In this document: positions 4,973-60,306 of the stretch, one piece after another
How positions within the stretch are numbered: the first letter of the stretch is position 1
Layout: each line of letters opens with the position of its first letter
DNA from: Antedon mediterranea
Lineage: Eukaryota > Animalia > Echinodermata
Direction of reading: 5' to 3'
DNA: 64,000 bases
Assembly (NCBI RefSeq): GCF_964355755.1
Contig: NC_092677.1
Span: forward strand, 5,664,101 to 5,728,100
Program-made: the position numbers and the translations under genes
The notes under the pieces: generated by a model
Databases searched by the model: none
Seen by the model: only the letters and a program-made list of their open reading frames with translations
What the model was told of the DNA's origin: nothing

Positions 4973-5069
4973 TGCAAAATCAAAACAAATCTCATCAAAT
5001 ACGTAGACTATGCTATCATTAATTTAGCAAATGTCGTAATTTAAAAATAATCTTGCAAAAACAATTTAA

Positions 5070-11330: not shown

Positions 11331-11441
11331 GTCAAAGTAAATTTCTCTCCTTTCAAACAAATATGGTTATTTTTGTCTTTGTCTTCGTCTTCGTGTCTTG
11401 TTAAGTGTTTATTTCTTGTTTTCTCACTCCGTTCCTTATGA

Positions 11442-11459
11442 AATTTGGGTCTTCCACCA
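11442..11459 (-). other. Primer binding site
   Basis: Minus strand TGGTGGAAGACCC... abuts the 5' LTR. TGG is complementary to tRNA CCA. The tRNA was not identified. Confidence 0.7.
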
Positions 11460-15789: not shown

Positions 15790-18700
15790 TTATTTTAACA
15801 TAATTTTTTTGTCAGAAATCAACTGCATTCCAATGGTATAGCCCTTTGTTTCTGAACCATAACTGTAAACACATACTATTCCCTCTGCTTCTTCTTTCCC
15901 TTCTTTTACACTGTAGTAAGCTAGGTCAGATTCTTCTGCATTCACTGCACCTAGTGTACACAACTGAGACCAGGTTTTACAACCATCTTCACTTAGGTGA
16001 AGTGTAAGATCCTTATTTGTTTCATTTCCATGACTTGCCATTGCTATTTGGAAGAAGTCATCTTTCTTGGCTGGTAAACGTACAATACCACCCTAGATAA
16101 AAAAGCAATTTAAGGACAAATTATACAAATAATGAATTTATCCAAGGAGTAGCAGAGTTCAATACAACATTTTTTTTTCTACAGTATAACTTCTAATTCA
16201 TCAAATCTTTTATCAGAATGAACTGCTTTAATTTTTCTACACAGTAGTGATGACAACATTTTAGAATATGTACATTAAAATAGACAGGTAGTGTTATACT
16301 ATACAACTACATTATACAAATACTACAACTAGACAGACAACACTAGAGATACAAACTTTCATATTGTAAAGTACCTGGTATTCTGGATTTGCATCTTCAA
16401 TCTGGCCTTTATCACTGTATATATGGAAACACTGCTTAGAGCCCTCCAATGAACAGCTGATGTAAACCTGATCCTTAGCATATTCAACAACCTAATAAAA
16501 TCACAGGATATGATAATATGGCATTTAGAGATCTCTACTAAAATCTGTGTGAAAAAGTGATACCACAATTTCAAATAAACGCAATGGAAAATTCTTACTT
16601 GTATATGTTCACCTAAGGTAGCATCTGGTGGAGCATCTGGTGGTTTAACATCTGTTGTCCAGATGTCACCATTATCATCACTTGTCATTACAAATAGTCT
16701 TCCTGCAAAAACAACAGCACAAATAACTTAAATTAAAATAATTAAAATTAATGGTCAGATCAATGCCATAGTGTATGGAGAAATTTTAATTATTATATTT
16801 AAAATCTCTGATTGGTTATGTAGAGGCAGCTCCAGAGCCATTAAAATAAACTTGCATGCTTTAAAAATGTCTCACACAAGCTATAGTGACAAAGCATGTA
16901 ATCTGCATCTTTGGAATCAGCTTATCTGTAAAAATGCTTCTGTACTGTGTTCTTTGTAGAGCGCTATAATATCAATTGTTATTATTTATTACTTGTTCAG
17001 TTTACAAGAATAGTTGATGTAGATGTTGATATTAATTTCCTAAAACAATAAAAAGGCTTTGCCATCATCTTTTGTATTTTTTTTTAAGACTGGCAGATGA
17101 ATAATTTTATGTTCATAATTATTCAGAAACTACACTTTTCAAGAACTATCTCTGTACACTACTTACTATAGAATGAGTACACCCTCTACATTCTATAATT
17201 GTATGTAAAGGGTGAAATGAGGAGGACAATAATCTCTATATTAATTATGTCAGGAAACTAAGAATGAGAAAGAAATATGAATTGAATATTGTATGTGCAA
17301 TGTTTGAGGGCAATTATTTGACAACTCTTTCAATGCTACTTTCTTACGCTGATCATTTTTCAGCTTCAAAATTCCTGCAATAACCAATTTTCCAGAATTT
17401 AAGCATACACCATCACCTAAACCTGAAAAACACAATGTATTTTTTGTAAGAAAATCAAGAAAACAAATTTTCCTGATAAACATTATAAACCAAGTAGAAG
17501 TAAAAATAAAATAAAATAGAACAAACAAGAAGATGTAGATTCGGATTAAATGTTTCTTTTGCTTCATACCTATGGTAAATGTGTTTAGAATTGTGAATGA
17601 AGTAAAATGACAATTGTATATGTTAACAAATACAAAATAAGAAATGTTGATAAATTATGTTATGAGTTAACATAAAAGAGAAAACAATACAAGCAGAAAA
17701 TATGTTTATGATGATTTTTCAAAATATATTTTAAAAATAAAAAAATATGTAATGTAAGTGAAAATATATGTAAATGCAAAAAAAAAAAAAAAATGTATGT
17801 TAACGAATAAAAAATATGTATGTTAATGGATAACTAGAAAAAAAAAAATATGTAATAGGAGAAGAATACAAGCAAAGATTATATACTGTATAGATAATAC
17901 ATAAAGTTTTTAAAATTAAAACATGTTGATAAATTATCTTATGAGTTAACAAACATTTTTTTTTTTTTTTAAATCAAGCAGAAAATATATGTATGATGAT
18001 ACAAACATAATTTTTTTTAAATCAAATTATGTTTATGCTATAAAATATATGGAATAACATTAGTAGAAATGTATGTTGAACATAAAAGTATGTATTTAGT
18101 TGGAAAATAAACTATGTATTTAGTTGGAAAATAAATTATGGATTAAAAAAAAAAGAAGGTAAATACTCTAAACATAATATGTTTAACTGTAAATAAACAA
18201 AAAAAGTTAAGTGTTCAAAGATAACAATGGGAAAGAAAAAAAACTAAAAAAGAACTGTACTGTAAAATTATTATATTATGTATTTATGGAATAAAAGTGG
18301 GATGAACCCATGTAAGACAAAAAAATGACAATTGTAATGAAAAAGAAATATTGAAGTAACAAACCCAATAAAATATTTCCCTGTAAATCCTAATATAAAT
18401 CAAGCATACAGTATACTTACTTAGACTATCTACTGGAAAGCTTGCCAAATCTAGTTGTACATCATTTGGTCCTTTCCATTTCTCTCCATTATCATCAGAT
18501 TCCATCATCATTATCTTCCTCTCTTTTGTGTTTTTATTTTCTCTAACACACATGATAATTACCTTTCCATTGTTCTTATCGGTCACAATTGGTACTAGAT
18601 TGTGAATTCTGTGCAGTAAATAGTACAAAAACAAATTGTTAACACTTTCAATCATGTTAACCTTAGTTTTTTCCATTTTACAGTATTTCTTCCCTACCCC

Positions 18701-19664
18701 CATCCCCTCCCACCCCAAAAAAGTAAATAAATGGAGGAGGAATATAATTAGTTAATTTGCTATACAGATACAGATTTATGAAAAATAAATAAAAACACAA
18801 AAAAGATACCAACATCTTTTCTGAATTATAGAGATGGTTTTGGTGTAGCATTCTGACACTTTTATTTGATAACTTTTCAGCAACATCAATGATAATAATC
18901 TATATGCAAGAAAAATCCTCAACAACTGATTCTGCATTGCCAATTATCCCTCATGGAAAACACAATAGTTTTTAGGGCCATACCAGATTATTATTGCAAT
19001 ATCCCATTTCCATACCTATTATCCTTCTCATGTAAAATCACTCTTGGTTTTTCCCATTTAATCAACCTCTTTATGTTTATCTTTCCTCTTCTCATAATTA
19101 AATCTGATTTTTGCTCACAAAAGACAAAAAAATGAGAATTTATACAGATCACTGCAGGATATCTAAAAAATAAACAAAAAAACATCTCTATAATAATGTG
19201 TACTGTATATTCAAATTCAAAGGTTTATTATAATTATATATATTATTTTGTATCCTCCATTCAAAAGAGCTTCATGCTTGTATATTTAATGACCATACAG
19301 TAAAAAGAAATGGAACTTTAGTTATATGGGGAAAAAAGAAAGCAGAATAGAAGCTGTTACTAACATTTATACATTTAAAGTTTAAATATGTATTAAATTT
19401 TTTATTTTTTTTAATACAGAACATTGCTTTAAATTTCTAGATACAAACTAGTTTCTTATCGCATATAGGAAAAAATCTCTCTTAGACCAACAAAGTAGTA
19501 GAGAACTAAAAAAAAATGTAAATACAAACCTCTCTAATAAACAAATTTTAATTCCATATTAAAATATTCTGTGTAATATTATTTGTAGATGGTGGATAAA
19601 AATGGTCATAACAATTACCTGTAAATGTTTCTTGGTTCCTTATCAACTGCAGCAAACACATCCA
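15790..19664 (-). CDS. Sialidase (GH33/NEU-like) beta-propeller exons, probably inactive
   Basis: YRYP (RIP-like) motif, Asp-boxes SDDNGEKW, SDDNGDIW and SEDGCKTW, plus LGDG..SGKLV and YQGGIV. Order is colinear with NEU2/NEU3. Confidence 0.88.
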
Positions 19665-22600
19665 CTAAAAATAAACCAATTTTGTAGTCATAATTAAGTT
19701 AAATATTATTTTTGTATGTCATTTTGTATGAAATTTTAACAATTTTAACAAAAAATTCATTGCAATGCATTGCATATTGTTGATTTTGTCAGAATAATAA
19801 AGATTTATCCATCAATTATCTCATACATTTAATTATTGCAATGATTGCATAGTTAAATCTAAAAATCCAAATGAATTAGATCTGGTAACAAATTTGTATC
19901 TTTTTTAAATTTCCATACCTAAATTAAACAAATAAATTAACTTTTAAAAGGGTCACAAAAAGACAGTGACTTCTCTCATGAGGACCCTTAGAACAAAACA
20001 AACAAAAAGATCTATTGAATATTTACTTCTAAAGAAAATGATTTTTATACCATACACTAAAGTAATTTGCAAAAAAATTTCTTATTTCAAATAAACATCG
20101 CTCTAAAATATCAACCAAGTGCGTCATTCCTATACGTATGCATCACTTTACCTCTGGGAGTTATGGTAATATTTCTGATATTATTTTGCAGTGCGCATTA
20201 TTTTAAATGTATTAAAAATAAATAATAAATTTAATAATATGACTGTTAAAATGCTATGATTTTAAAATGTTACGCTGACAGTTGCATTTATTAGGGCTAC
20301 AATATATGTTTTGGGAAATAAACTACAGTACTATTCATCAGAATCCGAGAATAGCAATTCATTCACAGGATAGGGCATAGGCAGAAATTGTGAATTGAAA
20401 TGGTGAAGCTAATCTACTTTTACATTGTCAAAATTAAAAGTGGGAGATGGGGTGGGCTGGGCCACTCTTCACATTGTGTTACAGGTTACTTTTGAAAAGC
20501 AAATAACCAAAATTAGGGTTCTGGAGGCAAAAGCTGAAAAACAATTGGCTTACATTGTACACACAGGCTCGATGCTCTTGTATGTAATAGTTTATTTATA
20601 ATACCAATCTGTGTAAGTTCACAAATGTACTGTCCAGCATCAACTAATTCCACTTTCACAAACTCTAAGCAGGACCCATTACCATCAAAAGTTACATTGC
20701 ATCTTTCTTGTACTTCTTTGAATATTTTCTTCTGTTTTGATTTATCAGAAGACCATATCAATTTTTTTACTGAATTAGTCTTCTTATACCAACTGACGAC
20801 AATATCTTTATCCTTTATTTTATATTTGCAAGTTAAAGAAGCTTTTCCTCCAACTGATGTTGCAAAACTATCATCCATGTCTAAAACTAAAAGATAAGAT
20901 ACTGAAATACTTAATGAATTTCTCATTCATCTATTTCTATAATTCTATTCAGGCCATGTCAAATTACCATGGAAATGTGCATACCTGTAATTTATCATAT
21001 TGACAGACATAACGTCAATAAGGTTGAGAGGGTTTGTATGCAAACTTTACAGATCACACACAAATTGATATGTTTTACCAGCTCTAAATAACTCATAAAG
21101 AATCATAAGAACAGCGTGCTAGAGTTTGTTCTACAGGCATAATGAAAGCAACTTGACATAATTTCAGAAAGAATTTGGCTCAGTGAATGAACCACAATAA
21201 CACTTATATCAAACATACTTACAGCAATCCACAACTAATCTGCTTGTTGCCGAGTGGATTTCACTATCCTTTCCTTCTGTCACACATTCACAAAGGAAGT
21301 CACCAGCATCAGATTTTTCAACCTTAGAAATTTCAAGATAACCTGCCTGCTCTTTCTTACTAAATTTAACTTTAAATCTGCCAAAAACTGTGAAACTATC
21401 ATCAGCAAGTTTCTTCCATTTATCAGATTCATATTTATAGAAAATAAACTCTTTAATTGATCTTTGTATTGGTGATGTAGTAAAAGGAATCTTAAGGTTT
21501 TCTCCTTCAATAGACCGTACAATTTCTTTCATTTTTAAAACTGGATCTATAAAGACAACAAAAACATATATTGTAAGTAAATTACCAAAAAAAAAATATA
21601 CCACACAAAAATTAGGTTTTTTGTCAGATATTTTTTAAAATAGTATAAATTAGTATACTATAAAGACTACTATATAAATTAGTAGTTAATTGTTTATTAC
21701 ATTTTAATTATATATAAAATATAATATTATCATGATGATTTTTTTTTTATTAAATAATATTTTTTTTTTATTTATGGACATCATTTCATTCAAACAGGTC
21801 TTCAGCTGAGCTAAAGGATGATTATGTGTTTAGATGTTTGGATTCTGTTTTTCTTTAAAGAGATTAATGTTTTGAGATTTCATTGCTTACATAAAGAATA
21901 GGTAATTTCACTTCAATGACTTTATTTAGATTTACTTTTTTTCTTGCTTTCAAACGACATTTTATATTCAATTTAGCTATTGGCATTGTTCAAAGAATAA
22001 ACAATGATATAACACATAGAAATAAACACACTTGGGAGAATTGCATGGTGATTCAGAAAAAGAACATTGAATTATAGCAAAGAGCAAAGCAGGACATGAA
22101 ACTGTACATTCTCTTTTACAAAATTCTGTAAAATATAAGCACTATACACAGATGCTCGTTTGAAAACACTGCACTAAAATAAAAAAATGCCACACAACAA
22201 TATGCCAACAGATAATCCACAATAGTCAGGAATGAACTGAAAGGGTGAGAGCCAATGATGGATATAGATGAAAGCACTGAAAAAATGACAATGTACATAA
22301 AAATGACAAGGATTATTAGAGATCTTTTCTAAATCACAGCATAATGAGAGATATAAAGGTGAAGCTTTTATGGGTAACAAAATCACTGCATTGGTTAAAA
22401 AATACAAATACATACACTTACCAAATCTTTTATAAACAAAAGTTATGTTTACATTTTTGTGAAAATTTCTAAAATAAAGATACTGGACAAACCATGTTAC
22501 TGGAAATATTTATTTCTTAAAAATGTTCAAAAATAGGTATAGACAAACATCAATTAGTTTCTGAATCTGAAAGTCTATTCCTGGTGTTTCTTGGAATTTA

Positions 22601-25600
22601 GAAATTATTAGAAATTCTGACATAGTGAAGAAGATTAAACTTCAACAAAAATCAATATTTTCCCATTTATAATTAATATCATGTATATAATTTTTTTTTA
22701 TTGTGTTCTAAATCAAATCATCTTTGCTTCATAGTACACATATGATGTGGATAAATCATGAGGATCTTAATTTAAGATTGGTATATCAACATTATATTCT
22801 ATTACTTCATTCAAAGAAAACAAAATGTTTTAACACTGTACATTGTAAAGTATATAGAAATAAGGAATAAGGACCTCAAAGTGAGTATTCTTCTTCATAT
22901 TGATACTAATTATTAAATACTATTATTATTATTATTTATACAGATCAGAAATATAATATGGGTGATACCTGTTTTTTTTTTAAATATTTACCTACCAGAA
23001 TTTATAAATTTGCCTTTTAAAATAAAAATATTTGGCAAATTATGTATCATATGGTGGAAGGTATTGATTTCAAGTTAGTGTTCCTTGATATGCAAGACTA
23101 AATTGACCAAGACTTGTCTGTTTAAAATCAATAGAAATGTCTTTTCTTGAATTAAGTCATTTGACTAAATAAGTCATTTGACTAAATATGAGATTAAGTT
23201 GACCAGACTGTAATTAGGGATTAAGGGAGGATATCAATAGAGGTGCCTTTGTTTATTGATTTTTTAAATTTATTTTTATATACAGTGATAAAGTCTAATA
23301 AATAAATGACATTAATTAATATTAATATTAAAATATTTTTATTGATTGTCTTGATTATATTATATTGATTTCAATAACAATAAGAAGAAATTAAAGTTAA
23401 TAATTAACATCTTCAACATCAGGCAGATTGAAAGTGTAGGTCCACTTTTAAATTCTAACAATACAAAAGATAGTTTCCATTTTTAGGCTCTATTTAAAAA
23501 AAGAAAGACTTTAAAACAAAGGTTCACACTGATAAAAAATACAGTATACATAACACTTTGCTTGGCATTACCACCCACTACATGCAGTATAGTTCCAGAC
23601 CAAACAATCCAACAAATTATTAAGTTTCAAGAATGAATCCGTTCATCAATTCCAAACTAAAGTATTATTAAATTTGATCGACACTACCTCTGAAAAAACT
23701 TCAAGGAATGGCACACCCTTGGTAACCTCCTTAATACCAACATTCTGATTATGATCCTGTTGTATATCTGTAGATTTAGGTGTATTACCTTGAACTGTTA
23801 ACCTTCCAGAACACCTGTGTATTTTGTGTACTTTGTGTATTTTGTGTTGCTCCGTTTCTTTAAATTCAACTTCACATATGTAATTTCCTTCATCTCCAGA
23901 TTCAACATTCCTGATCTCAAGATATGCACTGCTTTCATTGACATATCCACATTGATAGCGTGATGTTGAATCAAGTGAATTTATTGATGTCAGCATCTTG
24001 TTTTCTTTACCTTCAACATGCTTATACCATGTCACATTGGACATTTCACCATAATTCTTAACATTTGTTAACTTCAGTATCAAATTAACATAATTCACAC
24101 TCTTTCTGGTAATAATGGAAGGAATATCCATTATGAGAGGAACTACAAAAACAAGACAAAACAAATCATCACAATATTGTGTATATCACAATTTGTTTGC
24201 AAATAATTAATAACAGGTATGTGCATGCAATACATATAGAATAGATACGATAAGGTTTCTTGTTTTATTACAACTGTGAATGATGACTTTAAGTTTCAGA
24301 TTGAAAAATCCATAGTTGTTCACACCTTCATGATAAACAGACTCTACAATGTTGTGTTGATGTCTAAGATGGGGTCACCAAGAAACCACTTTATCAGGTT
24401 CAATTGTTTTTTAATGATATTTATGCCCAGGACAGTCTTATAAGGGCCTAAATTAGTAAGTAAGTTGCTTTTTGAAATTTTGGTATTATAATAAGTTCAA
24501 TTTTTTTTCTCTTTTGTGGTGTAAACACCACTTTTATTCACATTAATATCATCTTTCATGTTATCACCATAAAATCATATTATTCATCACATTTTTGTTA
24601 TATTGTACATAATATTCTACATTTATTACAGTGAATTAGGCTGATGATAAATCAGTATATTCAGAAATAAGAACATTTCATCATCTTTAAGATTATTTCA
24701 ACATAAAATTACCTTCCTTAACTGTCAGCTGTGTAGTGTCTTTTAGTTCTTTTTCTCCATCAACTGGCTTCACTTCACATTGATACTTGCCAGCATCACC
24801 AAGTACAACATTCTTTATCTTCAAAGACAGAATGTTGTCTTCTTGGTAACTTGTTACTTCAAATCTATCATCTTCTTTACAATCCTCAATCTCTGTTGTG
24901 CCATCTTCCCTAATCTTCTTCCACTTGTAACATGTTAATGGCATATCTGATGGTTCATATCTGCACTTCATTTCAAAATTACTGTTACCTTCTTCTGTTG
25001 AGTACTTGGGAGCTGCCATCTCAATGCCTTAAATATATAATATATATAATAATATATATAAATAATAAAAATATATATAGTACAAATATTAATTGAATGA
25101 ATTTATGACAAGTATAATATAATATTGTACTACGGTTGGGGCAACATTTTTTGTTACTTGATTTTCTCATCTTTATCTTTTCAAATTAATTAATTTTCAG
25201 CATATCACTGGGCAGTTTAGGATATATTCTGTGCTTGTTAATTTATATATTATGATTAGCCTACTAATTTAAATTCAAAATAAAACTTACAATAAACAGA
25301 TAAATTGTTGACACCTGGATGCTGCTGTCTACTGCCCTCTATGCTGCAGTTGTACTTCCCTGAATCAGATCTCACATGATTTAGAAATGTTAGGCTGATT
25401 CTTCCTCTACCACTTGTAGACACTTAAAAAACACAAAAACAAACAAAATATCATCTAAAATTTAATTTCTTCATTTTATTACTTTTAATTGTGAAAGTAA
25501 AAATGTTTCATTGATGTGCATTGTCTATGCATCGGTACATTCAACATTTCAGACATTTTATGAATTCAGTGTGTCAAGAGTTTTGTTATAAATTTCTTTC

Positions 25601-28600
25601 TAAAATTAAAGTTAATTAATTTAATGGCTTCCAGAAATATTAGTTTAACAGGAATCTTATTTTTAAATTAAAAAAAAACAACAAATAATTTATTTTGCAT
25701 CTAATTTGTGTATTTAATAATTACAAAAAAAAATAATGTTACTTACTTGAGTAAGAAGTTTTAGATCTGAAAAACAAAAAAATATACATTATAAAAAATT
25801 AAGAAAAAATACAGATTTAGAAATGGTGCTGAAATGATCAGAGTTCATTGGTCTTTCCCTCTACAATGTAATTTATTTATATTTGTAATAATTAGAAATA
25901 ATAAAAAAAATCACAATGAATATTATCAGTACCATATTAACATTTTATGAAAAAAAAAAGGTGTTTGGCATGCCAGACAGTAGTGATAAATTATCTATAT
26001 AACTTTTTTTTTCAAAACTAAATATATTCTATATTTGTAAAATTTGACCACTATCAATAGTGAAAAGTTCCAAATTATACAAATGATTATGTAAAATATG
26101 GAATAAAAATGTATATTTATTCATTTATGTTGTGGTAAATTCATATAACAAATTTGCATTATTACTATGCAAATTACAATAAAATCTATAAGCTGATCTT
26201 TTGACATTCAACAAATTTCCTCTATGTAAATTGTTGCCTTTAATTAATGGATGAAATCATAAAAATGTAAATTTGAATAAAGTGAAACATAAAATTTAAG
26301 TATTTATTTTCTACATAACACACAGTTACTATTTAAAACATTATCTATTTAGTATAACATGCGATACAAGAAGAAACATTCTCCCAATTCATAAACATTC
26401 ATTAGTTGTATACTATTTTAATAGGTTTAATTCAAATAAATTAATATAAAATAAAAGCAAGCTTGTGTTTAAAATACTCAAAAAATAAAGATGCACAAAG
26501 CTAAAAATTCCCAATTGAAGTTATAAAAAAAAATTTAATGTACAGGTATAAAATAATATTCAATGTAATATGGTAATGAGTTTTGAATCAAATAATATTA
26601 CAGATACAAATAATGGCAAATTATTGAAGAAATAATCTGGTAAGTTTATGTACATGATACAGGATTCTGAATTATCACAAGTAGTCATATTATAAATGAT
26701 ATAAATGGCCAGATGCAGCGAGAAGTGAATGGCAAGAATATATACTACATATCTATGTATTTAAGTGTATTTTGTAGAAGACTGCAACCAAGGTACGAAC
26801 AAAACAGAGGCAATGGCAGGCAATGAAAGACTGTATATAATCTATGGTAAATAAAGCAACCAAAATTATGTATGCAAAGTATGTAAATTATTATAGTACA
26901 GTATTAGGGACAGCAGATAATGAAAGGAAAAAGTTAAACTACCAGATTAGTCAGGCAAACCCTAAAACCGATAAAGATAAATTGCCACAAAAAAACAAAA
27001 ACAACACAAGAACTAAATTGTTTGCCAAAGAAAAAAATAGATTGCTCGTTCTTCAACATTCGCTCATAAAATGTTTTGTAAAAAAGCATGCACATGAATT
27101 AAGCATAAGGAATCCTATTCACGCAGTTTTATTTGGGTTTTTTTTTTAGCTGATCTGAAGAATCTGAAATCCTCCATTTATCATGGCTTGTAAATTAGAC
27201 TCATTTAAACAAACCCAATTTGTGTTTTGTATGTAACATTAAGGGTTGAGGGATGGGGGAAGAAGATAGGTACAAAGAGGAAACATTTTAAAATATATTC
27301 TTATCCACTCAGTAACGAAATATTGTTTTTAATGTTTTATAGGCCTATAAATAATATACCACTAAATACAGTAAAACATTTACGATTTAATACGGTACTT
27401 TGTTAAAACTCTCACTGTCATAGTCGATTGAAATAGTAAAGTACATGTAACGATACACCACTACGACGTTTATATATTTTTAAATTATTAATTAATACAA
27501 ACGTTGAGAAGCAACTGTCAGTAATAACGTTTATTTATTTGTATATTATATGTTTATAATCTAACAGTAGGGCCTACCCACACTCACAGTAATAAAGTTT
27601 ATTTGTATATATTTTTATATTACATCTAACAGTACCAACACTCACAGTAAGAAATTTACGATTCAAATTGCGATCAAAAGTGGTTAATACCTTAACAGTA
27701 TTGTACAGCATTGCAATACTATTTATGTTTATTCTCCATGGGGGCCCATAAATCTAAATCTATACCTCTATGGTTAAACCAAATAATTTGGAATGTTTAT
27801 TTGTATATTATATGTTTATAATCTAACAGTAGGGCCTACCCACACTCACAGTAATAAAGTTTATTTGTATATATTTTTATATTACATCTAACAGTACCAA
27901 CACTCACAGTAAGAAATTTGCGATTCAAATTGCGATCAAAAGTGGTTAATACCTTAACAGTATTGTACAGCATTGCAATACTATTTATGTTTATTCTCCA
28001 AGGGGGCCCATAAATCTAAATCTATACCTGTATGGTTAAACCAAATAATTTGGAATGTTCCATTCATCACAAATCAATACATTTGTAAAAACGTATATTA
28101 AATGTATCACAATAGTATTTTTTAAGAAAATCGGCCTGTCTTCAACATTATGATACTGTACTCGAGCTGTTCAACCGGTTTTCAGCTATTAAAAACAATT
28201 ATCGAAGGAGGAGATAGGAAAATGCGAAGCCTCCTCGCATTTTTGTGGCGGGTATTTTTCAAGATGGACATCCATTAGACAGTGTATACCACGATCGGAA
28301 AACACCCCTATTTGGGGCAAATCGTTGAACCTAAATTCGTTTTAATCGTCAATAACTAATTATCTAACTTAATTTAATTAGTAAACAGGGTTACATCAGG
28401 TGGTTAAAATCAGTACCGAAAGTACGAACCAACTTTATATACCATCGAGTAAAAATTCTAGAAGTAAGGCGCGATTTACCGAATTTTGCCCTTACGTAAA
28501 TTTATATATAGATACTTAAGAGGGTTTGGTGTCATGTAAGGTTTTGGCAATTCTCATAGCAAAAAACTATAAGCATTTCACTACTTTGCATAGATGTAGA

Positions 28601-31600
28601 TGTGTTGTACATACTGTAACTAGCAGAGAGGTTTTGAATCGTGAAAGAAATAGAAATGGCTGTAGTAACTCTTTGGTCACATAGCATGAAGTACTTCGTA
28701 TAATAAATGAAGTTTTATATGTTAGTGAAAAGTTATTTTGTGTAATTTTGAATATAATGGGTAAATATGAACAAAAGAGCTTTGCTGGAAGTGTATCTTT
28801 ATCATAAAAAAAATCCCAATAAAAATAAAAATCAAATACCAAAAACATTACCTTTCATTCAAGTCTTTAGCTAGAACATGAAATAAAAAATAATACAACA
28901 GTTAGACAATACAGGTGTGATGATGGTATAATAGCAACAAAAAAATACAAAACTATATAGTACAGTAATTATTAGGATTTTGAGTGGTCATTGTCTTATC
29001 AAATATCAAACAACAACATTGGGAATAGGTTATGGAAATACACTGGTACATTTATGACAGTACAAAATAACAATTAAAAGTCCAACATTCTTGTTTATAA
29101 CAATTTAAACTTAATCGGGTGTAAGTGTAAGACGGCATCTTAGCGTATGATCATTTTTTAATTTGAGAATAATGTGGTAGTAATATTTTATTACAATTTT
29201 AAATAGCCTAATAATAATTTAAAGGTCTTTATCTTGAGTGGAAACATGTTTGCTATGCGTTTTATGTAAATGGTCATAAGAAATAACATAGATTCTATAT
29301 TACCATTACCACTTGTCTGTGTAAATTGGCCATTAGAGGAAAGTATTTTGTTCAAAGTGAAGAATAAACAGAAAAAGATCAGAAAAATTATATCAATAAG
29401 AGTCATTACAAAGTACCAGTATGTATTATAAATACAAACACCACAAGTACAATGGTAATCATTAATACATATATAATACAATGGATACATTTATAATAAT
29501 GGATACATTTATAATACAATGAATAAAAATACAATACAATGGATACAAATACAATGAATGTAAAATAACACAAAGTACTGATAGTATATTAAAGTAATTG
29601 AAGCTCAGTCTGCAATTGAAAGAAAACCTGTAATGGGTATAAAAGCATAACAAACAATAATGACTACTACTAAAAAAGAAAGTGCAATCTATTCTATTAA
29701 ATATTTGTTAAAACAATGGCGTAATGGCTATGAGCACTCACTGGCTTAGTCCAAGGGTTCCTAAGCTTATAAGGGCTCCTGAACTGCGCCCAGACATAAC
29801 AATTTGTCAAAAAAAAGGCTAAAATGCCTCAAGGCCTCCAGCGTTTGAGAGCCATTTTGGGTCGCTAAACTGCGTTACAAAAAAATTAATAAAAAGATAT
29901 TCATTTATGTTAATATACAATAATTGGTACTTTTTCTATACCAACAAACAATTATATTTTTTTCAATCAATCAATCAATCAATCAATAAACTTTGGAATG
30001 TATAGAATTATAGAGTACTACTACATTTTCATGAATGAAAGTGATGATTACAAATAAAATATCATACAACAGATTCAAATAGACTGTATAATACAATAGT
30101 TCAACAAAGCCAGCTTGCACAACGTGCAGTTGAAAAGTAAAAAGCTGAAATTACAACACATTAGCATCATTTAAAATATATATATATATATATATAACCA
30201 AAAAAAATATATCAAAATTTGAGATAATAAAAGGAAGAAGGCGGGTTCCTAGAAAGCTACAGGATCTTGAGTTGTGGTGTCTGTGAGACAGAGGAACGAA
30301 GGGACAAATCAACAGAAATATCCAGCTAAAGCATGCATTTGTAAAAATTTGTCAATTCTACTGAAGTAAAAAAAAATGCATTTAACAAAACTTTTCTACA
30401 TTTTTTTTTTGGAGACTTTCAAATTACCTTTAGGGTGCAACACTCCTTGAGAAAACTCAAAATAAGGTGTCTGTTCCTCGGTTCTTATTATTTTCGATTT
30501 ACATGTACTGGGACGCAAATCTAGGTCAACATATTTTATCTCTTTCTATAAATAGAATAATTGCAATAATAGAAAAAACATGTATCTGTAAACTATCCTT
30601 TTATACCAATATATAAATCCAACAAGGAGATTTTCAAATGGTTTGTTACCATATTTGCAATTGATACCATTGGTATCTCATATTTTAAAACATTTTAACT
30701 AACTTACAGGTTCTGCAGCTGGTTTTTCCTTTTGATCAGTTTCCGATATTCCTATATTGAAAAGAATATCCACTACAATTAAGTATAATCAACTGACTAG
30801 ACTACTCCTATATGATGAATAGATTTATACAAATTAAAGAAATTACTAATAAATAAATTATGCGCTCAGAGGGCGTAAAATTATTCTTCATATTGAAGAT
30901 AAAGATACAGATAACTCAATATTTTAATAATCATGACGTCACCAATATATTAATTTTCCTGAAATTTAATAGGTATTTTCTACTAATATTTAAACCAAAA
31001 TATTAATAATTTGAAAATTGTTGACACTATCTATGATACTACTACCAATGATATTGTAAACCAACGATGTCGTTGGTTAAAATGCCTTTTCTGAATATGT
31101 AAACAAATTAATATAGTTGTCAATAAAAATATAAAACAAGTCTTCTATTCTTTATGAGAGTATTGATAGAAGTTACACTGTTTTCAATCTACATTTCAAA
31201 ACAACTATATACCTTTCTTAACAAGCTTTCCCTGGGATACTTCCATATACGGTGTTTGTTCTTCATTACTTATAATCCCTCCTGAGGAGGTACTGGCTTG
31301 AAAATCAAGATCCGCATATTGAAGCTCTTCTTCCTAACATTTTCATAAACTAATCAATATCTCTTTTAAAAAAACAATCTAAAATGGACAAATTAACTAA
31401 TTGCCAGATTTTGAATAGACAAAATAATTCTTCTATCTCAAACGAATAAAGAAATGAAAATTAAACAAAAATGTTTTAAGGGATTTTGGTGTATATTCTC
31501 TAGCAAAAAAGTCAACTTTGCTAAGAAATTATCTTTAATTTGCAAAAGTGTCCGTCTAAAAATCTAAAATACCTTGTGTTTATCTTCAATTTCTGATATT

Positions 31601-34600
31601 CCTATAGTAGCATATAAAAGAAAATTAATTAAAACATGATAAAATAGATATACCACTTTGAATGAATTACTGCATGTATGTACTATAATTATTTACTACA
31701 TATATAATACTAGTCTATAACTTATTTTACTTTACATTTAAAATGCAATTAAAATAGTTTCAGGTAGCATATACAGTACATTAAGACTGTAAATTAATAA
31801 ATCAAAAACAAGATCTACAATCATGCTTTCTACAAAAAAAAAAGTTGTTTGTAATATAAATATCGTTTGTATTATTACGTTTGTTAGTTTCGATCAATTA
31901 AACACAACATTTAAATGTTAGAAATTATCTATTCTACAAAATGAATATACACAAAAGAAGATGATAATTATAAAGTATAAGACATTATAAAATGCAACAC
32001 ATCAAACCAATCAACTATGACTCAGACTAAATGCTAAATATGTTAGTCTAAAAAAGAAAAAAAATATAATAAATAAATGATATGCTAATCCAATACTATA
32101 AAATTAATATACCAATCAGAACAATTATATATTTTAAAAAACCGTCCACTTACAAAAATAAAAGCATGGGTAGATTAAAAAGCGGGACAAATAGGTTTTG
32201 TGGTTACATAGGACAAATGTTAAGCTGTCTATTTCTACACTATAACTGCAATACTAATTCATTATAATTAGTAGAAAAAAATCGGCAGCATAATGAGAAA
32301 GGTTAGTAATGTATGTTTGGTCAGTTGTTAGTAAAAATTACACACATTGCAGTGAAATCATCTAAGAACTGTCCACAATGACAAAGTTAAGCATACATTT
32401 TGCCAAATGATATTCTTCCAAAAATACACTCACTGGGTGAAGAATAATAAAATGAAGTGATTTTTTTGGCATTTTTTTCTACTTTGCTACTGTACTTATT
32501 GTAAATAAGCAGCAAAATTGTCTTTAAAAATATGACATCACCAGTAGACTTTCTGCCACGCTGTCCAACTTCAGCATAAGTGACAGGTTGTTCAAATGAC
32601 ATAGAAGAACCAGATTCAACATTTTCATAAATTATTTCGTCCTGTAAATACATTTTGGCCAAGTCACAATAGTAATAATATCCTGGACTTATAAAGCGCC
32701 TAATGTTGTGAATGACCGGCGGCTTGCAGCGTAACTGGGCTAAATTGTGCACAAGTGAAACAGGGGTAGATGGCCAAGTACAATGGGGTAACCACTCCTG
32801 GGATGCACTGGATTCTCGCAAACCAGGTTTGTAAACTGGACATCCAGTCCAAAAAGACTAATTTTTACCAATGAAGAACACATTTTGTTTTGCGGCACAC
32901 CGGCCTTATAGCACTTAACCACTTGAATCAACATTGCTTTGATTATTATATTCACACGTTTAAAAAAAACTTAATTTTAATACTGGATATCTAGATAGAC
33001 ATAGATCATATTTTCTATAAATGCTTCAGAATTGATGCATATGTCTTTACACAATTATTGTCATATAAATTGGGATTACATAACTTTAAAAATAGCTATA
33101 ACAATATATATATTCAAACATTTTTTGTGCATGCCACTGCGTTTTTAAAGTTTTTAAATAAAGATTCTTACTGTATAACCGATGTTGAAGGATCCTCCTT
33201 AAATAAATATAGAACAAACAGATATTGTAATATTAACAACTTCTAATACAAAAATAAATAAACCTGTACTTCATTAGCAATTTTAACAATACAATAATTA
33301 AATTTCTGAGACAGAATAGTTTGCTTGATTGTGTTTGGCCACTCTATAACTACTCCCTTAACACACCCTGCCCCCATCCCCACTTCACCGTCCACCTCAG
33401 TAATAACTGCTGGTTAATTGAGAAAAATAATTTGTAAATGCAAACATTGACAGCTTTAGAATTCACTGTATCGTAAATTATTGTAATGTTTACTGTAACT
33501 TAACAATCAAATAAAAACAAATTCTACAATAAATGTATACTCTATTGCTCATAAAGAGTCAGAGAAACCTAAACAAAATAATAAGTTGATTGATTGATTG
33601 ATTGATTGAAGTAAGAGATATACATTCAACTCTATTGAAACAGGACTTTTTGGAATGCATATCAAGTAAAAAATTAATCATGTTCCACCTGAAGCTAAAA
33701 AAAAGTAATCAAGAGAATAAATAAATAGCAAAGTTTATACTCACCAGATGTTGCTTGATGTTCTGCTAAAAGTTCACTACCTTCATCAACAGGATTTGTC
33801 TTCGAAAACAAAATTGAAACAGATTTTACATTATTTTAAGCATGTTTTAAAATACTGTAATGTTTTTTTTCAATATGACAGTAAAATACGTAGAATAAAT
33901 CAATTCTTTTTAAAATCAACATTATTAATTGTTGGTTGTTTGATGTGGTAGGTAATTTCTTGCCTTGACAGTTGTAAAATAAGATGATTTTGAGATTGAT
34001 AGGAAATTCAGAAAACGTAAATAAATAGCAAGATAGCAAGGCATAACATTGTAAGCATATATGCTATATTTATTATCTATTTAAGAATTTGTAGAAAAGT
34101 GAAAAAAATACAATATACTGTATATTAACATACAAAATAACTAGACATAATTTAATGTTAATGACACAAAATAATGGTAGAATTAATTATTGACCTAGCA
34201 TTTTAAGAGTAAGGTTTGGCAGTAGATATTTATATACGACAGATATACCAATATGATATAAAATAGATAATTATTCATATATGGTCTTTTCAAGTTAGTT
34301 GATACTATTCTCATAGTACCAACCTTTGATGTTTCTCCAGATTTAGGAAGTGCAGCAGTGTCTTCAGTTTCTGCAGACTGGTTTGGTGAACTGGATTTGA
34401 TTACAACAAGAGGAACATCTGCACCATCAGGTTCTTCTCTTTCACTGCCGTTCATGCGACTCTCTTCACCACTTCTACTACCACTGCTGTTGGGTTGACA
34501 CAATAAAAGAAAATAATATTACAACACAGGTACCTCTGTACCATCAAGACATTCTCTTTCATTCACCCTCAGCTGATATTCTACACTCCTCTGTTGCTAC

Positions 34601-37600
34601 TGGGTCAATATAATAAACAGTTGTTTTGTTGTAAATTGAAATCAAATTTATTGTGAGAGTTTTTCATACTTTGATTAAAATTAAAAAAAGTAAAAATAAT
34701 GTATTTAATCATGCTAGGTAAATGTAAGTTCAGTATTCAGTTCTGAACGTAGAGGAATGAGCTGTAGTGTTAGGAGCTCATTTTACTAAGCCTCTGCTTT
34801 ATGTGGTAGGGTGGCCAGTTTCTTTCCACGCCGCCTTATCCTCTCTAGTATTTTCAGGTACTCATTTACCGCTGAGTAGACTGGAAGTTGTCGGGAATTT
34901 AACCCAGGTCTCTCTGTACCCAACTTCTTATCATCATGTTACAATGGTGAAAAATCTCACCTGTGTTTCTTTTTATCTTTACTGTTGTATTCAACTATGA
35001 AATAAAACAAAGAGTTAATGCATTAATACAATATATTGAAACGGACAAAAACAGTCAGTACCTAAAACATTTTAGTAAAAAGGAAAATGAATAAATAAAT
35101 TGAAATTTGAATATAGAAATCATTATTTACATATCATTTTATTGTCCAATAAAAAATAATAATTACATTATTCAAATGATTATTTGAAAAAAAAATTGAA
35201 ATAAAATGGTTTGAAAAATATTAATATACTTTAGGATAAATAAAAAATATGTAATACAGTAACTTACCCGATTTGTTACAGTATTCAATACAAAAGAATC
35301 CACAAAAGTAAAGACAACAATAACAGACAAACTGACAGACTGTTTTACAACTACTGAATTGCTTTTGATTTGAACCAAGCACTTTGTTGTCTTTCTTTAT
35401 TTCAAAAGTCTTGAACCTTGCAATACTTGGACGGTATTTAAAACTCATCTCAACTTGTTTACCACCTTCAACTGTCAATGTATTAATATCTTTATTACTC
35501 CACTCAATATTCTTGTAATGCATAAAAACTAAAAGTAAAATATTATCCTTAATATTTAACATTATTTTAATGTATTGTTATTATCAAACTTTATATATTA
35601 TTTGAAAATAAATTATTGTATCTAGAATAATTTGTTTATTGTTCTCTGGCATTGTCTGTGTAATATTTTCCAGAACATATGGAATTGGTTTCCAACGAGA
35701 ATTTAAAATGGTGTAAACAAATAAACAAAGAAGCTATTATCAATTATTATAATACATTCTACATTAATCATGGACATTCATTTTTTTTACATAAAAATCT
35801 GAATGAAGAAATAATAAAAAAAAATGGTATAAAACAGTATAATGAATAATGTTAATGAATGAATATTAAAATCCTAAAAGAAAACTATATTTATTTAAAT
35901 TCCATCTAAATACACATGCTAATTGCTATGAAATTTATATAAATATTATTTAATTCACTGTGCAAATAAGAGCACTGAGGCAGACATACCTTATTGGATT
36001 CAAATGGGGCATTTAAAAATAAACCAATTGAGGGATAATGTTATATGCATGCTATGCAAATGAGGCAAATATTTAAACATGGGAGATGATACTTTACTTA
36101 CAGACAATAAGCAGTAACCATAGGAACAAACCAACAACAACAACAACAATCAGGAGGATGAACGATCCAGCACCTGAATATACAAAAATAGTCAAGACTT
36201 CCATTAATAAAATACAGATACATTTTTTGAAAGCTAAGGTATTGCTTAAAACAGAATTATTGATATTATAATGAAATTATTAAGCTAACTTTTAAATACC
36301 AAAAGCACTAAAATATTTTAAAATGCTGGCCAGAATATCATCAACTCTTAGTAAGTCAAATATGATATTTTACAGACATATTAATCATTGATAATAATAC
36401 AATTTTACATTTGTTAATTTTGTAGGTGTGGTTACTATAACACAGGAACTCCAGTACACTGTGATGTTTTATTTTTAATCTATACAAAAAAATCACAATG
36501 ATTCAGGATGACCCATTTAATACTTATATTGAAAATTCTTATCTATAACTAAATTGTTTACTCATCTAGAAAATAATAGGAAATTGAATAAAGGAAGTCA
36601 TTCAGTAAAGCCTAGTAATGTGGTAATACAGATGAGTTTTCTGCCATTAGTACGACGGATATACAGAAAGAGCATTACCCCTCTTAAAGCAAATTAGATA
36701 ATGGTGAAAATCTGTATACTTTACATTTATTTTACCAACTTGACATCACGATCAAGTTCATTGAATTGAGCAATAATGGTGCAACAACCTCATGTTTTAA
36801 AAATTAGGAACACAAATGCCATAAAAGTTGCACTAATATGCCTAGATAGAATAGATCATTTTGCTAGATGCTAAATTTTGTCCAAAATATATGCTAAGTT
36901 AAGAAAATTTATGCTAGCACTACTACTATTACTAAGGACTGATTTGTGATAGACAATTATATCGAACATAAGTCCTTTTGGCCTATCTATATCAATTCCT
37001 AAAAATGTATATCTGTGTTTACTGGAATCAAGTATTAGTATACTATCTGAATAAAGGTTTTTTTAAATTTTCTTTGCATATGCATTGTTATACAGTAATT
37101 AAATTCAATATTTTCTAAATAAACATGTTTGAATGGGCGCCATTAAATTTTAATGAGTGGGTAGGTGAATAGCTAGTGTTAGCAACATGAATTTAGCAAA
37201 TTTATGATGATTCTTTTGAAAAAAGACAAAGTGTATTATAACTAAAGACAACTGTACCGTATGTAACTTTCAATTATACTGTAATTGGGCCAGAGGCCTC
37301 TATACATGATTGAATAAATGGCCTAGGTCACGTGCCTAGGAACGAACGAATTTCATATATAATGGATTGAGTGAAAGTTTGTATTTTTATTTTATTTTTT
37401 TATTGGTTTGGTTTTTTAAATATTTAAGTGAAATAATAACAACATGCATAAATTATTCTTATAAAAAAAATGCTGATTGGAATATTTACTGTACCTAGAA
37501 ACATTCTAATATAATTCAATAATAATAAAATACACTTTTCAGTTAATAAAAAAACAGCTGTCAAAAGGGAACACTATACTATACTGTATATATCAGCTCA

Positions 37601-40600
37601 TTATACTGTAGCATTATGTTTGATTGGAACAATACTACAGTAGTAGAGGAGAACCACTGATAAATCTAAATAACAATTGGAATACAATTTTTTTACAATA
37701 GTAATTTTGCAAGATTAAACAATTTATAAGTACTTGTTATAATAAGTTTTTTTTAAAATGCAGGTTATTTCCCTAATTTGTCCATTCTCAGAGAGTGAAA
37801 TTGTTTCTAATAATAACAGTGAAACAAGGAAGAACAATTAAAGCAAACTGAAATTGAAAGTTGTATACATTTTACAACTTCCTTTGTTTAAATTTTAGAA
37901 CTTTGTAGGATAACTAAATATATTAAATTATTATTGGAAACATACGAACATCAAATAAAACTTTAAAAGAATAAATTAAAATTAAAGGATTTCAAATTTA
38001 AAATTATATTTTCAATTGCAAAAGCATTGATAAAATAAATTTGCATTGACAAGCATTGAACGACCATGTTAACTTTTATTAGGATTCATTATTTAGATAT
38101 GCATACCAAACTGGCTACCAGCAAAATCATTTGAGTTTGGTGTCAGTCCTACAATAAAAATGTTTGTGAGACATTTTGCTTCTACTAATGTAGAGTTTCA
38201 TTTCCATTCACAATTTATTCATTATAAAACACTTTTCATACTGCAACAAACACATAGCACTTATGAATGTTTACTGTTTACTTCTAGTTTTTGCATCTAA
38301 TCTATACAAACATGTACCTAATGGTTAATTATGCGCATACAGATAGCACATAGTATTTGATTTAAACTGTACGATATGCACAAGTATTATTGAATAAGAA
38401 AGAAAATTAGGAAATTGCAACGTAATTCATGAATGCCTTACTAAATAGTAAATTTAATACATTACCTGCTACATTACCTGCTTCATTACACTCCTCTAGT
38501 GTTGTTGTGTCATTAAGCTTTCCATTCTCTGCATAACATGTAATATTTGATTGACATATCTCATCATTAATTTCTATAGTTGCTGTATTTTCTTCTTTCT
38601 TAACCACTTCTCCATCTTGTAATATCAATACAGATGATGGCTTGGGATGGCTCTCTGCTGTACATGTTGCAATGCCATCTTTAGATGTAAACTTAACAGT
38701 GATAACTAAAAGCATTTAAAGATCAGTGTGAATGCACATCTCGTACAATGTACTAATAAAAATAAAAGCATTTAAAGATCAGTGTGAATGCACATCTCGT
38801 ATAAAATGTAAAGCTGGCCACTTAAAAACTAGTTTTAGTTCATGTTCATAAACACCTCAAATTTCTGTATTCAATTCTTGATTTTTTCAGAAATACACAG
38901 TAGGTTATACTTTGCTGTGTTCTCATGAAACAACATAAGTTGTTGTTGATACATGAGTACTAACAATAAATCACATCTTGAATCACACATGAATACATTT
39001 CAAGTAAACAGATCAGTGGTAAATTTGATAAAAAATCATCCCAAACCTTGGCAATCAGAATTTCACAACCCCACTATTTTAATTATAATTAATGTATGTA
39101 CATGGATTAGGTGATGTTTTTTATATTTTACATACAATATCCAATTATGTTCAACTGTTTTCCAACACTTGTTTTAGCATCATCTCCTTTAAACTGATCA
39201 CTTTCTGCTTTACATGTAAATATCCCACCATCTTCTTTAGTAGCTGATTTAATCTTAAGAACTGACACTGTACTGTTACTCGCAATCTCATATCTAGATA
39301 GGTTGTTGGTGTTGACTGTCTGTCCATCTTTATACCAAGTAATGTCAGGAATAGGATCACCATCAGTACTACAGGTAAAGGTCACTGATTGACCTTCATA
39401 GACAGAGCTTGCTGAGGCATCAAGAAGTGGTTGATCCAAGTCTGAAATGAAAAGATGAAAAAAAATGAACTAGCTTTACAAAATTATATTTACTAAAAGT
39501 TGATGCTAAATATTGTATCAAAAAAAGAACAAGCCAACATCCCTTTTTAGATCTAATGAATTTTTACTGTTTCTGGTTTGTTATTTATGTACTCAACTCC
39601 AAAAGAGATGAAAGAATATACTGTAGTATAGTTTCCACATTAACTGTAGACTAAAGTGCTATAATTAATATATTATAATATTACAAAACATATGTTTTAG
39701 TCATAATCATAAAGGGAATGCGATTCATGCAAAAAGAGCCATTTAAAGAAAATTTGACTTGAATTGAAAATAGGTAGACATTAAAGTACTTTATATAACA
39801 CCTATATAAATTCCTGCCATTTGATTGGACGAATGTGGGTCACATGGCGTGCAATAGTACGCACTATTCAACGATCGTTAAATAGTACTTTTTGAAACAT
39901 TTTTGTTTGTTATTTAGATGTTATATAAAACAAATAATGGATGTTTTGTATTCGTGTAATGGTACAAATAATGGCACTTGGTGAATGATGAAAGGTTATA
40001 TCAACTCGGCTTTGCCTCGTTGATATAACCTTTCATCATTCACCTCGTGCCATTATTTGTACCATTGCACTCATAAACATTCATTATTTGTATATTATTT
40101 GATATGTTCAGTATTATGCTAAAATTAGGTGGTACCCAGACTGTTAATTGAGTAAGAAGTAGTGGTTTCAAAACCTTTATAATAGTTGTTAGTGCAGTGA
40201 ATGATATTATTATTTGATCAATTTAATTAAAAATAACAAATTTAGACTTGGGAAATTACATATAACAGTGATTTTAGAATGATTTATGAAAATAGAAAAA
40301 TTCTTTTGATCTTTAGTCTATTTTATGATATTATACTCACAATATACAGTTAGAATAGATGGATTTGAGGTTGCAATATCTCCATCCGTTGTTCGTATCT
40401 CACACTGAAATGTTCGTTCAGAATCACCTCTGGTTGGCTGTGACATCACCAAGTCAGCTTTCCCAGGTTTTATGTTTAATTTAAAACGTCCATTTTGTAT
40501 CTTCTTATCATTTACAAGGTTTGTAGATCTATCTTCATACAGTTCATTCCATTCTATTGTATAAGGTGTAGTAGATGTAAATTGTGAATAATCACAAGTT

Positions 40601-40996: not shown

Positions 40997-41454
40997 CTAA
41001 AAATTAGAAAAAGGCTGAATATCAATTAGTGTGTATGCTCACTTTACATGTCGTAATAATGTCTAACTAAACATTTTATTGAATTGAAATTGAACTACGA
41101 CAATGTCAAGTTTGAGGTTTGCGATGGCTTGAGATTATGAATGTCTAAATGTTCATTTGATAAACAAATTAATTTTGAAGTTTTCAAGTCATTTAAAAAA
41201 AAAGGCAATATTGGTTAAAAGCGTGAGATTTTAGGTGCATGGTGCGCGACCTTGAGGTTGGGTAAAACGCATGAGCGCGAGACTGGAAATGTATGGACAT
41301 TATTACATTAGACGTACTGTACAGTACAATAGATATGTATTGAACTGGAGATGAAATGTATACATACTGTTGCTTTTATATACCGTACAGTAGTAGTGCT
41401 CTGTCTGGTGTTGCCAAAATGATGTAGCGCGGAAAACTGAACAATACATTAGGC

Positions 41455-42430: not shown

Positions 42431-42695
42431 GAACAAGTTATGAATTTTTAAGTCTCTGATATGTGATAACAAGTATGACCGTTGAGTTATGTTTTTGGTT
42501 ATGCCTAAGGCTACTACTAAAAAATCCTAGCTAGTACCTACTGTACTACTACTAGGAAGGCTGGGAGGGCCTATCTAGCTAAGCTATGCCTATAGTAGGG
42601 ACCTATAATGCCTGCTTAAGTGCTATACTATAGGCATAGACTAGTAAGTACTAGGCCTAGGCCTACTACTACCTAGTCCGAATTACGATCATCAC

Positions 42696-60270: not shown

Positions 60271-60306
<36 letters not shown>

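What the first reader, a model, noticed from the sequence alone, without database searches (positions are those of the whole stretch)
15790..19664. Sialidase domain looks like a preserved pseudoenzyme
Manual alignment to human NEU2 from memory. Kept: first triad Arg (YRYP), the E218-like Glu (TLGEHIQ) and the Q270-like Gln. Changed: R41 to K with the D46 loop deleted (FCEQKSDLIMRRG), R237 to S (VYISCS vs TLNAR), R304 to N (NKDL vs RADL), nucleophile Y334 to E (AEESDL vs CAYSDL) and E355 to S (VCVYS vs CLYE). All seven exons are open and three Asp-boxes are intact. Inference: the fold is retained as a scaffold or ligand sensor, not a hydrolase.
Basis: partly seen in the sequence, partly recalled or inferred. 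Interest (0 to 1): 0.82.

Follow-up and report, generated by a model that had tools for sequence, protein, structure and literature searches.

The report
Dead sialidase on crinoid receptor tail
A feather-star-type gene encodes an immunoglobulin-domain membrane protein ending in a sialidase-like domain that has lost five of its six catalytic residues; the domain likely sits inside the cell and likely docks partner proteins instead of cutting sugars.

Summary
The domain is real and the pseudoenzyme reading holds, with one correction and a wider context. Seven open exons give a 325-aa sialidase-like domain. A paralog's model is a confident six-bladed propeller whose best match is human NEU2 (Z 37.3). 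The 'kept' catalytic Glu is one residue out of register: that column is Glu in 18 of 18 intact enzymes and His in 12 of 12 family members. Five of six essential residues are therefore gone (D46, E218, R237, R304, Y334); only R21 remains. The domain is the C-terminus of a 1,348-1,494-aa protein: signal peptide, three Ig domains, a transmembrane helix, a split Ig domain around a Cys-rich stretch and optional ITIM/ITSM cassettes, four more Ig domains, then the propeller. Relatives were found only in crinoids (Antedon, Anneissia) and group with intact crinoid NEU-type enzymes (99/98). Conservation follows the fold, arguing against plain decay, though this copy has two private lesions. Cytoplasmic location and docking role are inferred. 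Sialic-acid binding is unlikely, since two triad arginines are lost. Ten literature searches found no description.

The parts
15790..16092 (-). Sialidase-like exon S7: variant Asp-box, R304 position (Asn, codon at 16017), Y334 position (Glu, 15933-15931), E355 position (Ser), stop codon
   Evidence: 77-87% identical to Antedon paralogs, the most uniform exon
16375..16491 (-). Exon S6: R237 position (Ser, 16452-16450), Q270 (16377-16375); private deletion of about 7 aa at a fourth Asp-box site and Tyr in place of an otherwise invariant Cys
16599..16702 (-).
17348..17422 (-). Exon S4
18421..18608 (-). Exon S3: N86 position kept; canonical Asp-box
   Evidence: (BNR_2, E 5e-4)
19016..19162 (-). 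Exon S2: E39 kept, R41 lost, D46 loop deleted
19619..19664 (-). Exon S1: start of the domain; R21 codon split across the intron
20554..25027 (-). Four post-membrane Ig exons (25027-24713, 24142-23789, 21546-21223, 20880-20554); the second and third lack the B-strand Cys
25291..25422 (-). C-terminal half of a split Ig domain
   Evidence: Pfam V-set positions 70-95; family Ig profile positions 66-93
25747..28870 (-). Two linker mini-exons (28870-28852, 25766-25747)
30428..33197 (-). Three frame-preserving Tyr-motif cassettes (33197-33172 + 32641-32542; 31601-31573 + 31333-31213; 30751-30708 + 30545-30428) with 4 ITIM and 1 ITSM consensus matches; the first mini-exon is a candidate only
   Evidence: the third cassette is 80% identical to an insert present in RefSeq isoform P0156 and absent from isoform P0155
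33745..34994 (-). Linker exons (34994-34961, 34486-34324, 33799-33745)
35268..35528 (-). N-terminal half of the split Ig domain followed by a Cys-rich, moderately hydrophobic stretch
   Evidence: family Ig profile positions 7-38; hydropathy about 1.8 in homologs
36102..36173 (-). Transmembrane exon
   Evidence: hydropathy 3.1-3.6 in homologs
38478..40667 (-). Three N-terminal Ig exons: V-type 40667-40341, I-type 39441-39136, short Ig 38705-38478
40948..44950 (-). Start exon 44950-44870 and signal-peptide exon 40996-40948 (predicted by likeness to P0157)

Best explanation
The domain is a sialidase-derived propeller that has lost five of six catalytic residues and ends a crinoid Ig-transmembrane protein; it likely lies in the cytoplasm and likely works as a non-catalytic docking module of a signalling receptor. 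Shown: gene structure, residue losses, retained fold (in a paralog's model), and grouping with crinoid NEU-type enzymes. Inferred: a copy of a signal-peptide-less crinoid sialidase gene was fused to the 3' end of an Ig receptor gene, lost catalysis stepwise, and was amplified. Inferred mechanism: a ligand binds the three outer Ig domains; the optional ITIM/ITSM cassettes are phosphorylated and recruit SH2 phosphatases; the inner Ig chain holds the propeller away from the membrane, where it binds or clusters partner proteins. Splicing the cassettes in or out would switch inhibitory output. Separate odds: no sialidase activity 0.95, cytoplasmic 0.8, protein docking as the main role 0.5.
For: Catalytic loss; the six essential residues are named in PMC3431349 (passages). 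Fold: model of the P0006 domain (68% identical to the window's), pLDDT 90.8; Foldseek top hit NEU2, TMq 0.81; VIA-align NEU2 Z 37.3, rmsd 2.6, 320 aligned. One gene: 24 exons give 1,348 aa, 30 exons give 1,494 aa, with 29 of 29 AG and 29 of 29 GT sites; RefSeq P0004, P0005, P0006 and P0161 have the same layout. Origin: pseudo rows plus 3 crinoid NEU rows form a clade at 99/98 in a 41-row tree. Anneissia P0058 keeps R21, R41 and E355 but not Y334 and branches first (95/80, on a long branch). Constraint: window versus Anneissia P0010 is identical at 42 of 75 columns conserved in intact enzymes and 82 of 240 variable ones (p 0.001). Of 19 listed exon differences in DNA and RNA-guess contigs, 9 are synonymous against a site fraction of 0.20 (p 0.007; 0.018 with multi-hit codons collapsed; 40 of 61 rows shown). 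Topology: one strong TM; the pieces flanking the Cys-rich stretch map to profile positions 4-38 and 65-98 of one Ig domain in 8 of 8 sequences each; N-glycosylation sequons exceed the shuffled mean before the TM in 6 of 7 homologs (p 0.05 or less in 4) and are not significant after it in any of 7; P0161 lacks most of the Cys-rich stretch.
Against: No partner is known and no binding was tested. R21 (11 of 11), N86 (11 of 11), E39 (9 of 11), Q270 (11 of 12) and the new His and Ser are conserved at the old pocket across both genera, which fits a retained pocket as well. Only 1 of 8 Antedon homolog models carries ITIM matches. The AlphaFold model of the split-Ig region failed (pLDDT 34.9) and drew the Cys-rich stretch as helix, so a second membrane pass is not excluded. 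Branches to the family are long (1.42 and 0.97). This copy has a private deletion and a Cys-to-Tyr change. The modelled protein is a paralog; AlphaFold was also given many intact sialidases in its alignment, which favours the sialidase fold.
Confidence: 0.5

Rival explanations
1. Re-tuned ligand sensor: the old pocket now binds a cytosolic sugar, metabolite or metal other than sialic acid and modulates receptor signalling.
For: Pocket positions R21, E39, N86 and Q270 are kept, and His (E218 column) and Ser (R237 column) are newly fixed across Antedon and Anneissia; several new invariant Cys appear (aa 84, 133, 199).
Against: Two of three carboxylate-binding Arg are lost and the D46 loop is deleted. 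The Y334 position differs between lineages (E, S, C, N) and E355 is lost in Antedon. The kept residues may be structural, since most are also conserved in intact enzymes.
Confidence: 0.2
2. Integrated decoy or regulator: the dead domain mimics the host's cytosolic sialidase, trapping a pathogen factor or a sialidase partner and so triggering or damping the receptor (analogy to plant integrated-domain receptors, recalled).
For: The intact parent type coexists in both species (P0015, P0016, P0027). The family is clustered and fast-evolving: in-window paralog exons show dN/dS 0.3-1.2.
Against: Identity to the intact enzyme is only 24%, so mimicry would be poor. No such pathogen factor is known. 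The last exon is the most uniform part among paralogs.
Confidence: 0.1
3. Two-pass topology: the Cys-rich stretch crosses the membrane, so the later Ig domains and the propeller are extracellular adhesion or lectin-like modules.
For: The stretch is about 20 residues with hydropathy 1.75-1.77 and was modelled as helix at low confidence. Ig domains are usually extracellular.
Against: It would separate the two complementary halves of one Ig domain and place the Tyr motifs outside. Sequons are not enriched after the TM, and 2 of 4 later Ig domains lack the B-strand Cys. P0161 lacks most of the stretch.
Confidence: 0.1
4. Passenger in decay: the domain, or at least this copy, no longer has a function.
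For: Private deletion at an Asp-box site and loss of an invariant Cys in this copy. Family members without the domain exist (P0155, P0156, P0157, and the neighbouring copy in the window).
Against: Open in all 11 near-complete family rows from two genera, with fold-directed conservation and a synonymous excess. The whole gene is one open frame with 29 of 29 canonical introns.
Confidence: 0.07
5. Still a hydrolase, with a new catalytic set (for example His and Glu).
For: Invariant His and, in Antedon, a Glu at the nucleophile position face the old site by alignment.
Against: That Glu is Ser, Cys or Asn in Anneissia; the acid/base loop is deleted.
Confidence: 0.03

Closest known systems
Animal NEU2/3/4 and invertebrate NEU5 sialidases (GH33; PMC3431349, passages seen)
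   Same: Six-bladed Asp-box propeller, R-x-P start motif, best structural match NEU2, nested in this clade beside crinoid enzymes
   Different: Five of six essential residues are lost; fused to a membrane receptor. That paper kept only sequences with all catalytic residues, so it could not have listed this family.
Plasmodium CyRPA (PMC5349852, passages seen)
   Same: Sialidase-fold propeller without catalytic residues, acting non-enzymatically in a protein complex
   Different: CyRPA is 9% identical to its nearest sialidase, has one Asp-box and is a stand-alone parasite protein; this domain is about 24% identical to a host enzyme and is a receptor tail
Trypanosoma cruzi inactive trans-sialidase (PMC5632715, passages seen)
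   Same: Conserved inactive sialidase-family member kept by selection
   Different: It carries a single Tyr-to-His change and still binds sugar; here the carboxylate-binding triad itself is dismantled
ITIM/ITSM-bearing Ig receptors such as Siglecs, PD-1, LILRB (consensus motifs recalled; LILRB passage in PMC11999971)
   Same: Outer V-type and further Ig domains, one TM helix, paired Tyr motifs, clustered fast-evolving paralogs
   Different: Those have short unstructured tails; here the tail holds a split Ig, four Ig domains and a propeller, and the motifs are on optional cassettes

Membership tests
GH33 exo-sialidase (NEU2-5 type) | Six-bladed beta-propeller | tested here: met
   Model of paralog P0006 domain, pLDDT 90.8; NEU2 Z 37.3, rmsd 2.6, 320 aligned. 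The window's own spliced protein was not folded.
GH33 exo-sialidase (NEU2-5 type) | Asp-boxes | tested here: met
   2 canonical and 1 variant; a fourth site is damaged. BNR_2 passes its cut-off in 6 of 6 homologs scanned.
GH33 exo-sialidase (NEU2-5 type) | Arg triad R21/R237/R304 | tested here: not met
   Only R21; S200 and no Arg in the R304 loop
GH33 exo-sialidase (NEU2-5 type) | Tyr/Glu nucleophile pair Y334/E218 | tested here: not met
   E279 and H184; the E218 column is H in 12 of 12
GH33 exo-sialidase (NEU2-5 type) | Acid/base Asp D46 | tested here: not met
   Loop deleted in 11 of 11 main-clade rows; 8-residue gap in HHalign
GH33 exo-sialidase (NEU2-5 type) | Descent from animal NEU2-5 genes | tested here: met
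   Clade with crinoid NEU 99/98, inside an animal clade 97/94; rooted on 10 unnamed prokaryote-like rows; no NEU1 row was included
GH33 exo-sialidase (NEU2-5 type) | Sialic-acid hydrolysis | not testable with these tools
   Needs an assay
Inactive trans-sialidase-type lectin | Binding site intact, only the nucleophile changed | tested here: not met
   Two triad Arg, R41 and the D46 loop are also lost
ITIM-bearing IgSF receptor | Signal peptide, outer Ig domains, single TM | tested here: met
   the signal-peptide exon is predicted by likeness
ITIM-bearing IgSF receptor | ITIM/ITSM consensus after the TM | tested here: met
   4 ITIM and 1 ITSM matches on cassette exons; homologous cassettes in 1 of 8 Antedon models
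ITIM-bearing IgSF receptor | Motifs are cytoplasmic | tested here: inconclusive
   Sequence evidence favours it; the structure test failed
ITIM-bearing IgSF receptor | Tyr phosphorylation and phosphatase recruitment | not testable with these tools
   Needs biochemistry
Siglec | Sialic-acid-binding Arg in the V domain | not tested
   No Siglec alignment was made; the resemblance is limited to ITIM plus ITSM

The most novel reading that the evidence does not exclude
Crinoids evolved an expanded, polymorphic Ig receptor family that senses on both sides of the membrane: variable outer Ig domains, an ITIM switch set by alternative splicing, and a captured, disarmed host sialidase on an intracellular Ig stalk that detects a cytosolic ligand or pathogen factor. 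This would be an animal counterpart of integrated-domain immune receptors.
Probability: 0.18. Interest if true: 0.88.

Novelty: new variant of a known kind. Interest (0 to 1): 0.64.

Why it matters
Animal sialidases are treated as uniformly catalytic, and the metazoan survey read here filtered out inactive ones. This is a conserved, amplified dead copy with a traceable parent in the same genomes, and an apparent intermediate (P0058), so stepwise loss of catalysis and gain of a new role can be studied directly. The receptor layout is unusual by itself: Ig domains and a propeller apparently inside the cell, with optional ITIM cassettes. It offers a concrete candidate for diversified recognition receptors in crinoids, the least studied echinoderm class. 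Databases label these proteins 'uncharacterized', 'sialidase-3-like' or 'obscurin-like', so the sialidase label on P0010 is probably wrong as to function.

Tried and rejected
No whole genome is held, so there is no true dN/dS or paralog count. Single-exon Pfam scans were weak, and a full-length paralog against the PDB returned only Ig hits. No RNA holder was listed for the stretch. Reads were laid only on 15600-17600, so exons S1-S3 were not examined. Summed contig depth over S7 was about 40-80 times that of single-copy bins in three DNA runs of one sample; the tool states this is no copy number, so it is a hint only. The AlphaFold model of the split-Ig region was unusable. The two-chain complex test was not available and the ESM Atlas did not complete. 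A FastTree run left the nearest relatives unresolved (0.60-0.70); the IQ-TREE runs replaced it. A bacterial origin was considered because Clostridium sialidases scored best in the PDB sequence searches, and rejected on the tree and fold ranks. Among the 143 further profile hits only 3 carry family-type Ig domains, all crinoid; only the best 150 of 799 hits were seen, so absence in other taxa is not shown. Ten literature searches listed no paper describing this family; most subscription journals are not covered. Two look-ups in earlier findings were empty.

Full report
Observation. The window is AT-rich animal DNA. Seven minus-strand exons between 19664 and 15790 have canonical splice sites and give one open frame of 325 residues plus stop. 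The last exon found 8 Antedon mediterranea proteins at 64-85% identity, 7 of them with a BNR_2 domain. A profile of nine family domains found 799 proteins at E up to 0.001, of which the best 150 were listed. The named top hits were crinoid family members and then NEU-type sialidases of crinoids, hemichordates, other echinoderms, amphioxus and vertebrates.

Catalytic residues. The six residues essential in animal sialidases are R21, D46, E218, R237, R304 and Y334 (PMC3431349, passages seen). NEU2 numbering was transferred through the intact Antedon enzyme P0016 (E 2e-29 to NEU2 chains) and an L-INS-i alignment. That column is Glu in 18 of 18 intact rows and His in 12 of 12 pseudo rows; the Glu of the GEH motif is the residue before it and is present in 7 of 12 (P0051 and P0058 left out of this count). 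HHalign gives the same register at probability 99.7. Five of six essential residues are thus missing. E355 is kept in the Anneissia rows, and Anneissia P0058 still has R41, suggesting stepwise loss, though P0058 is on a long branch and aligns poorly in blade four.

Fold and origin. The window's own spliced protein was not folded, so the P0006 domain (68% identical) served as proxy: pLDDT 90.8, pTM 0.91. Its best matches are human NEU2 by Foldseek (TMq 0.81) and by VIA-align (Z 37.3, rmsd 2.6, 320 aligned; bacterial sialidases follow within 1-2 Z units). The alignment given to AlphaFold held many intact sialidases, which favours this outcome. In a 41-row IQ-TREE tree the 12 pseudo rows are sister to three intact crinoid enzymes at 99/98, inside an animal clade at 97/94 (no NEU1 row; outgroup rows unnamed).

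The whole gene. The domain is not free-standing. Twenty-four exons from 44950 to 15790 join to one frame of 1,348 aa, or 30 exons to 1,494 aa with three optional cassettes, with 29 of 29 AG and 29 of 29 GT sites. The order is signal peptide, V-type Ig, I-type Ig, short Ig, TM helix, half an Ig, Cys-rich stretch, linker, the other half, four Ig domains, propeller. RefSeq models P0004, P0005, P0006 and P0161 have this layout. The cassettes hold four ITIM and one ITSM consensus matches (consensus recalled). Homologous sequence is present in isoform P0156 and absent from isoform P0155, which suggests alternative splicing; only 1 of 8 homolog models carries ITIM matches.

Topology (inferred). There is one strong TM segment and one weak Cys-rich segment. 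The sequences on either side of the weak segment match complementary parts of one Ig profile in 8 of 8 cases each, two of four later Ig domains lack the B-strand Cys, and sequons are enriched only before the TM. P0161 lacks most of the weak segment. These points favour a cytoplasmic tail. The structure test of the split Ig failed (pLDDT 34.9).

Selection. All 11 near-complete family rows are open. Identity between this copy and Anneissia P0010 is 56% at columns conserved in intact enzymes and 34% elsewhere (p 0.001). Listed exon differences among alleles or paralogs are 9 synonymous to 10 non-synonymous against a synonymous site fraction of 0.20 (40 of 61 rows shown). A run guessed to be RNA had depth in 13 of 30 bins, over the four exons examined and the 3' flank and not over the purely intronic bins, with a loose end at the S6 acceptor that reads by eye as the previous exon of a paralog. 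Only 3 of its 27 contigs were 99% alike or more, so this speaks for the family and not for this copy. Against constraint: long branches, Antedon-Anneissia identity of 32-43% versus 49-56% for intact pairs, and in this copy a private deletion and loss of an invariant Cys.

How it likely works. Catalysis is very unlikely. Binding of sialic acid in the manner of the inactive trypanosome trans-sialidase (one Tyr-to-His change, sugar binding kept; PMC5632715, passages) is unlikely, because the carboxylate-binding triad is broken and an acid occupies the nucleophile position in Antedon. The better analogy is CyRPA, a sialidase-fold protein with no activity that serves in a protein complex (PMC5349852, passages). 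I therefore favour a docking module at the end of an intracellular Ig chain in an ITIM-switchable receptor (0.5). A re-tuned pocket is the main rival (0.2), since R21, E39, N86, Q270 and the new His and Ser are conserved across genera. No step of the signalling model was tested.

Novelty. Dead sialidase folds are known, and a degenerate fish sialidase-3 turned up here (P0051), so this need not be the only animal case. A conserved, amplified pseudo-sialidase as the tail of an Ig receptor was not found in ten literature searches (listings only, except four papers read as passages) or in earlier findings. The proteins exist in RefSeq without a functional description. Verdict: new variant of a known kind, interest 0.64.

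Noticed in passing
window 4256-11976, minus strand: Ty3/Gypsy-type LTR retrotransposon with open gag-like (9776-10744) and pol (5070-9794) frames and terminal repeats 95-99% identical, so probably recent.
   Followed up: partly
window 52458-63681, minus strand: Tandem paralog of the same receptor (three outer Ig, TM, split Ig, three inner Ig) with open exons but no further Ig or sialidase exons before the next gene starts; exon dN/dS against the main copy is 0.3-1.2.
   Followed up: partly
window 15790-16092 versus paralogs: The last exon is 77-87% identical to Antedon paralogs while the other six are 23-77%, yet only 41-43% to Anneissia: recent homogenisation or a lineage-specific binding surface.
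   Followed up: partly
P0051 (Nothobranchius furzeri sialidase-3): Lacks R21, R41, D46, R237 and Y334 in the alignment: possibly an independent pseudo-sialidase in fish.
   Followed up: no
P0058 (Anneissia japonica LOC117121679): Ig-Ig-sialidase-like protein keeping R21, R41 and E355: a possible earlier stage of the same fusion.
   Followed up: partly
window 35268-35330 and homologs: Cys-rich aromatic stretch inserted in the split Ig domain; could be a palmitoylated membrane anchor. Several paralogs also have a YxxM motif just after it, absent in this copy.
   Followed up: partly
window 27574-28015 and 28126-28345, 47937-48167, 61879-62109: A tandem duplicate of about 260 bases and a dispersed repeat recurring in introns and between the genes (seen in ORF lists).
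   Followed up: no
window 45675-46437, minus strand: Fragmented frames resembling the end of a LINE reverse transcriptase (resemblance recalled, not scanned).
   Followed up: no
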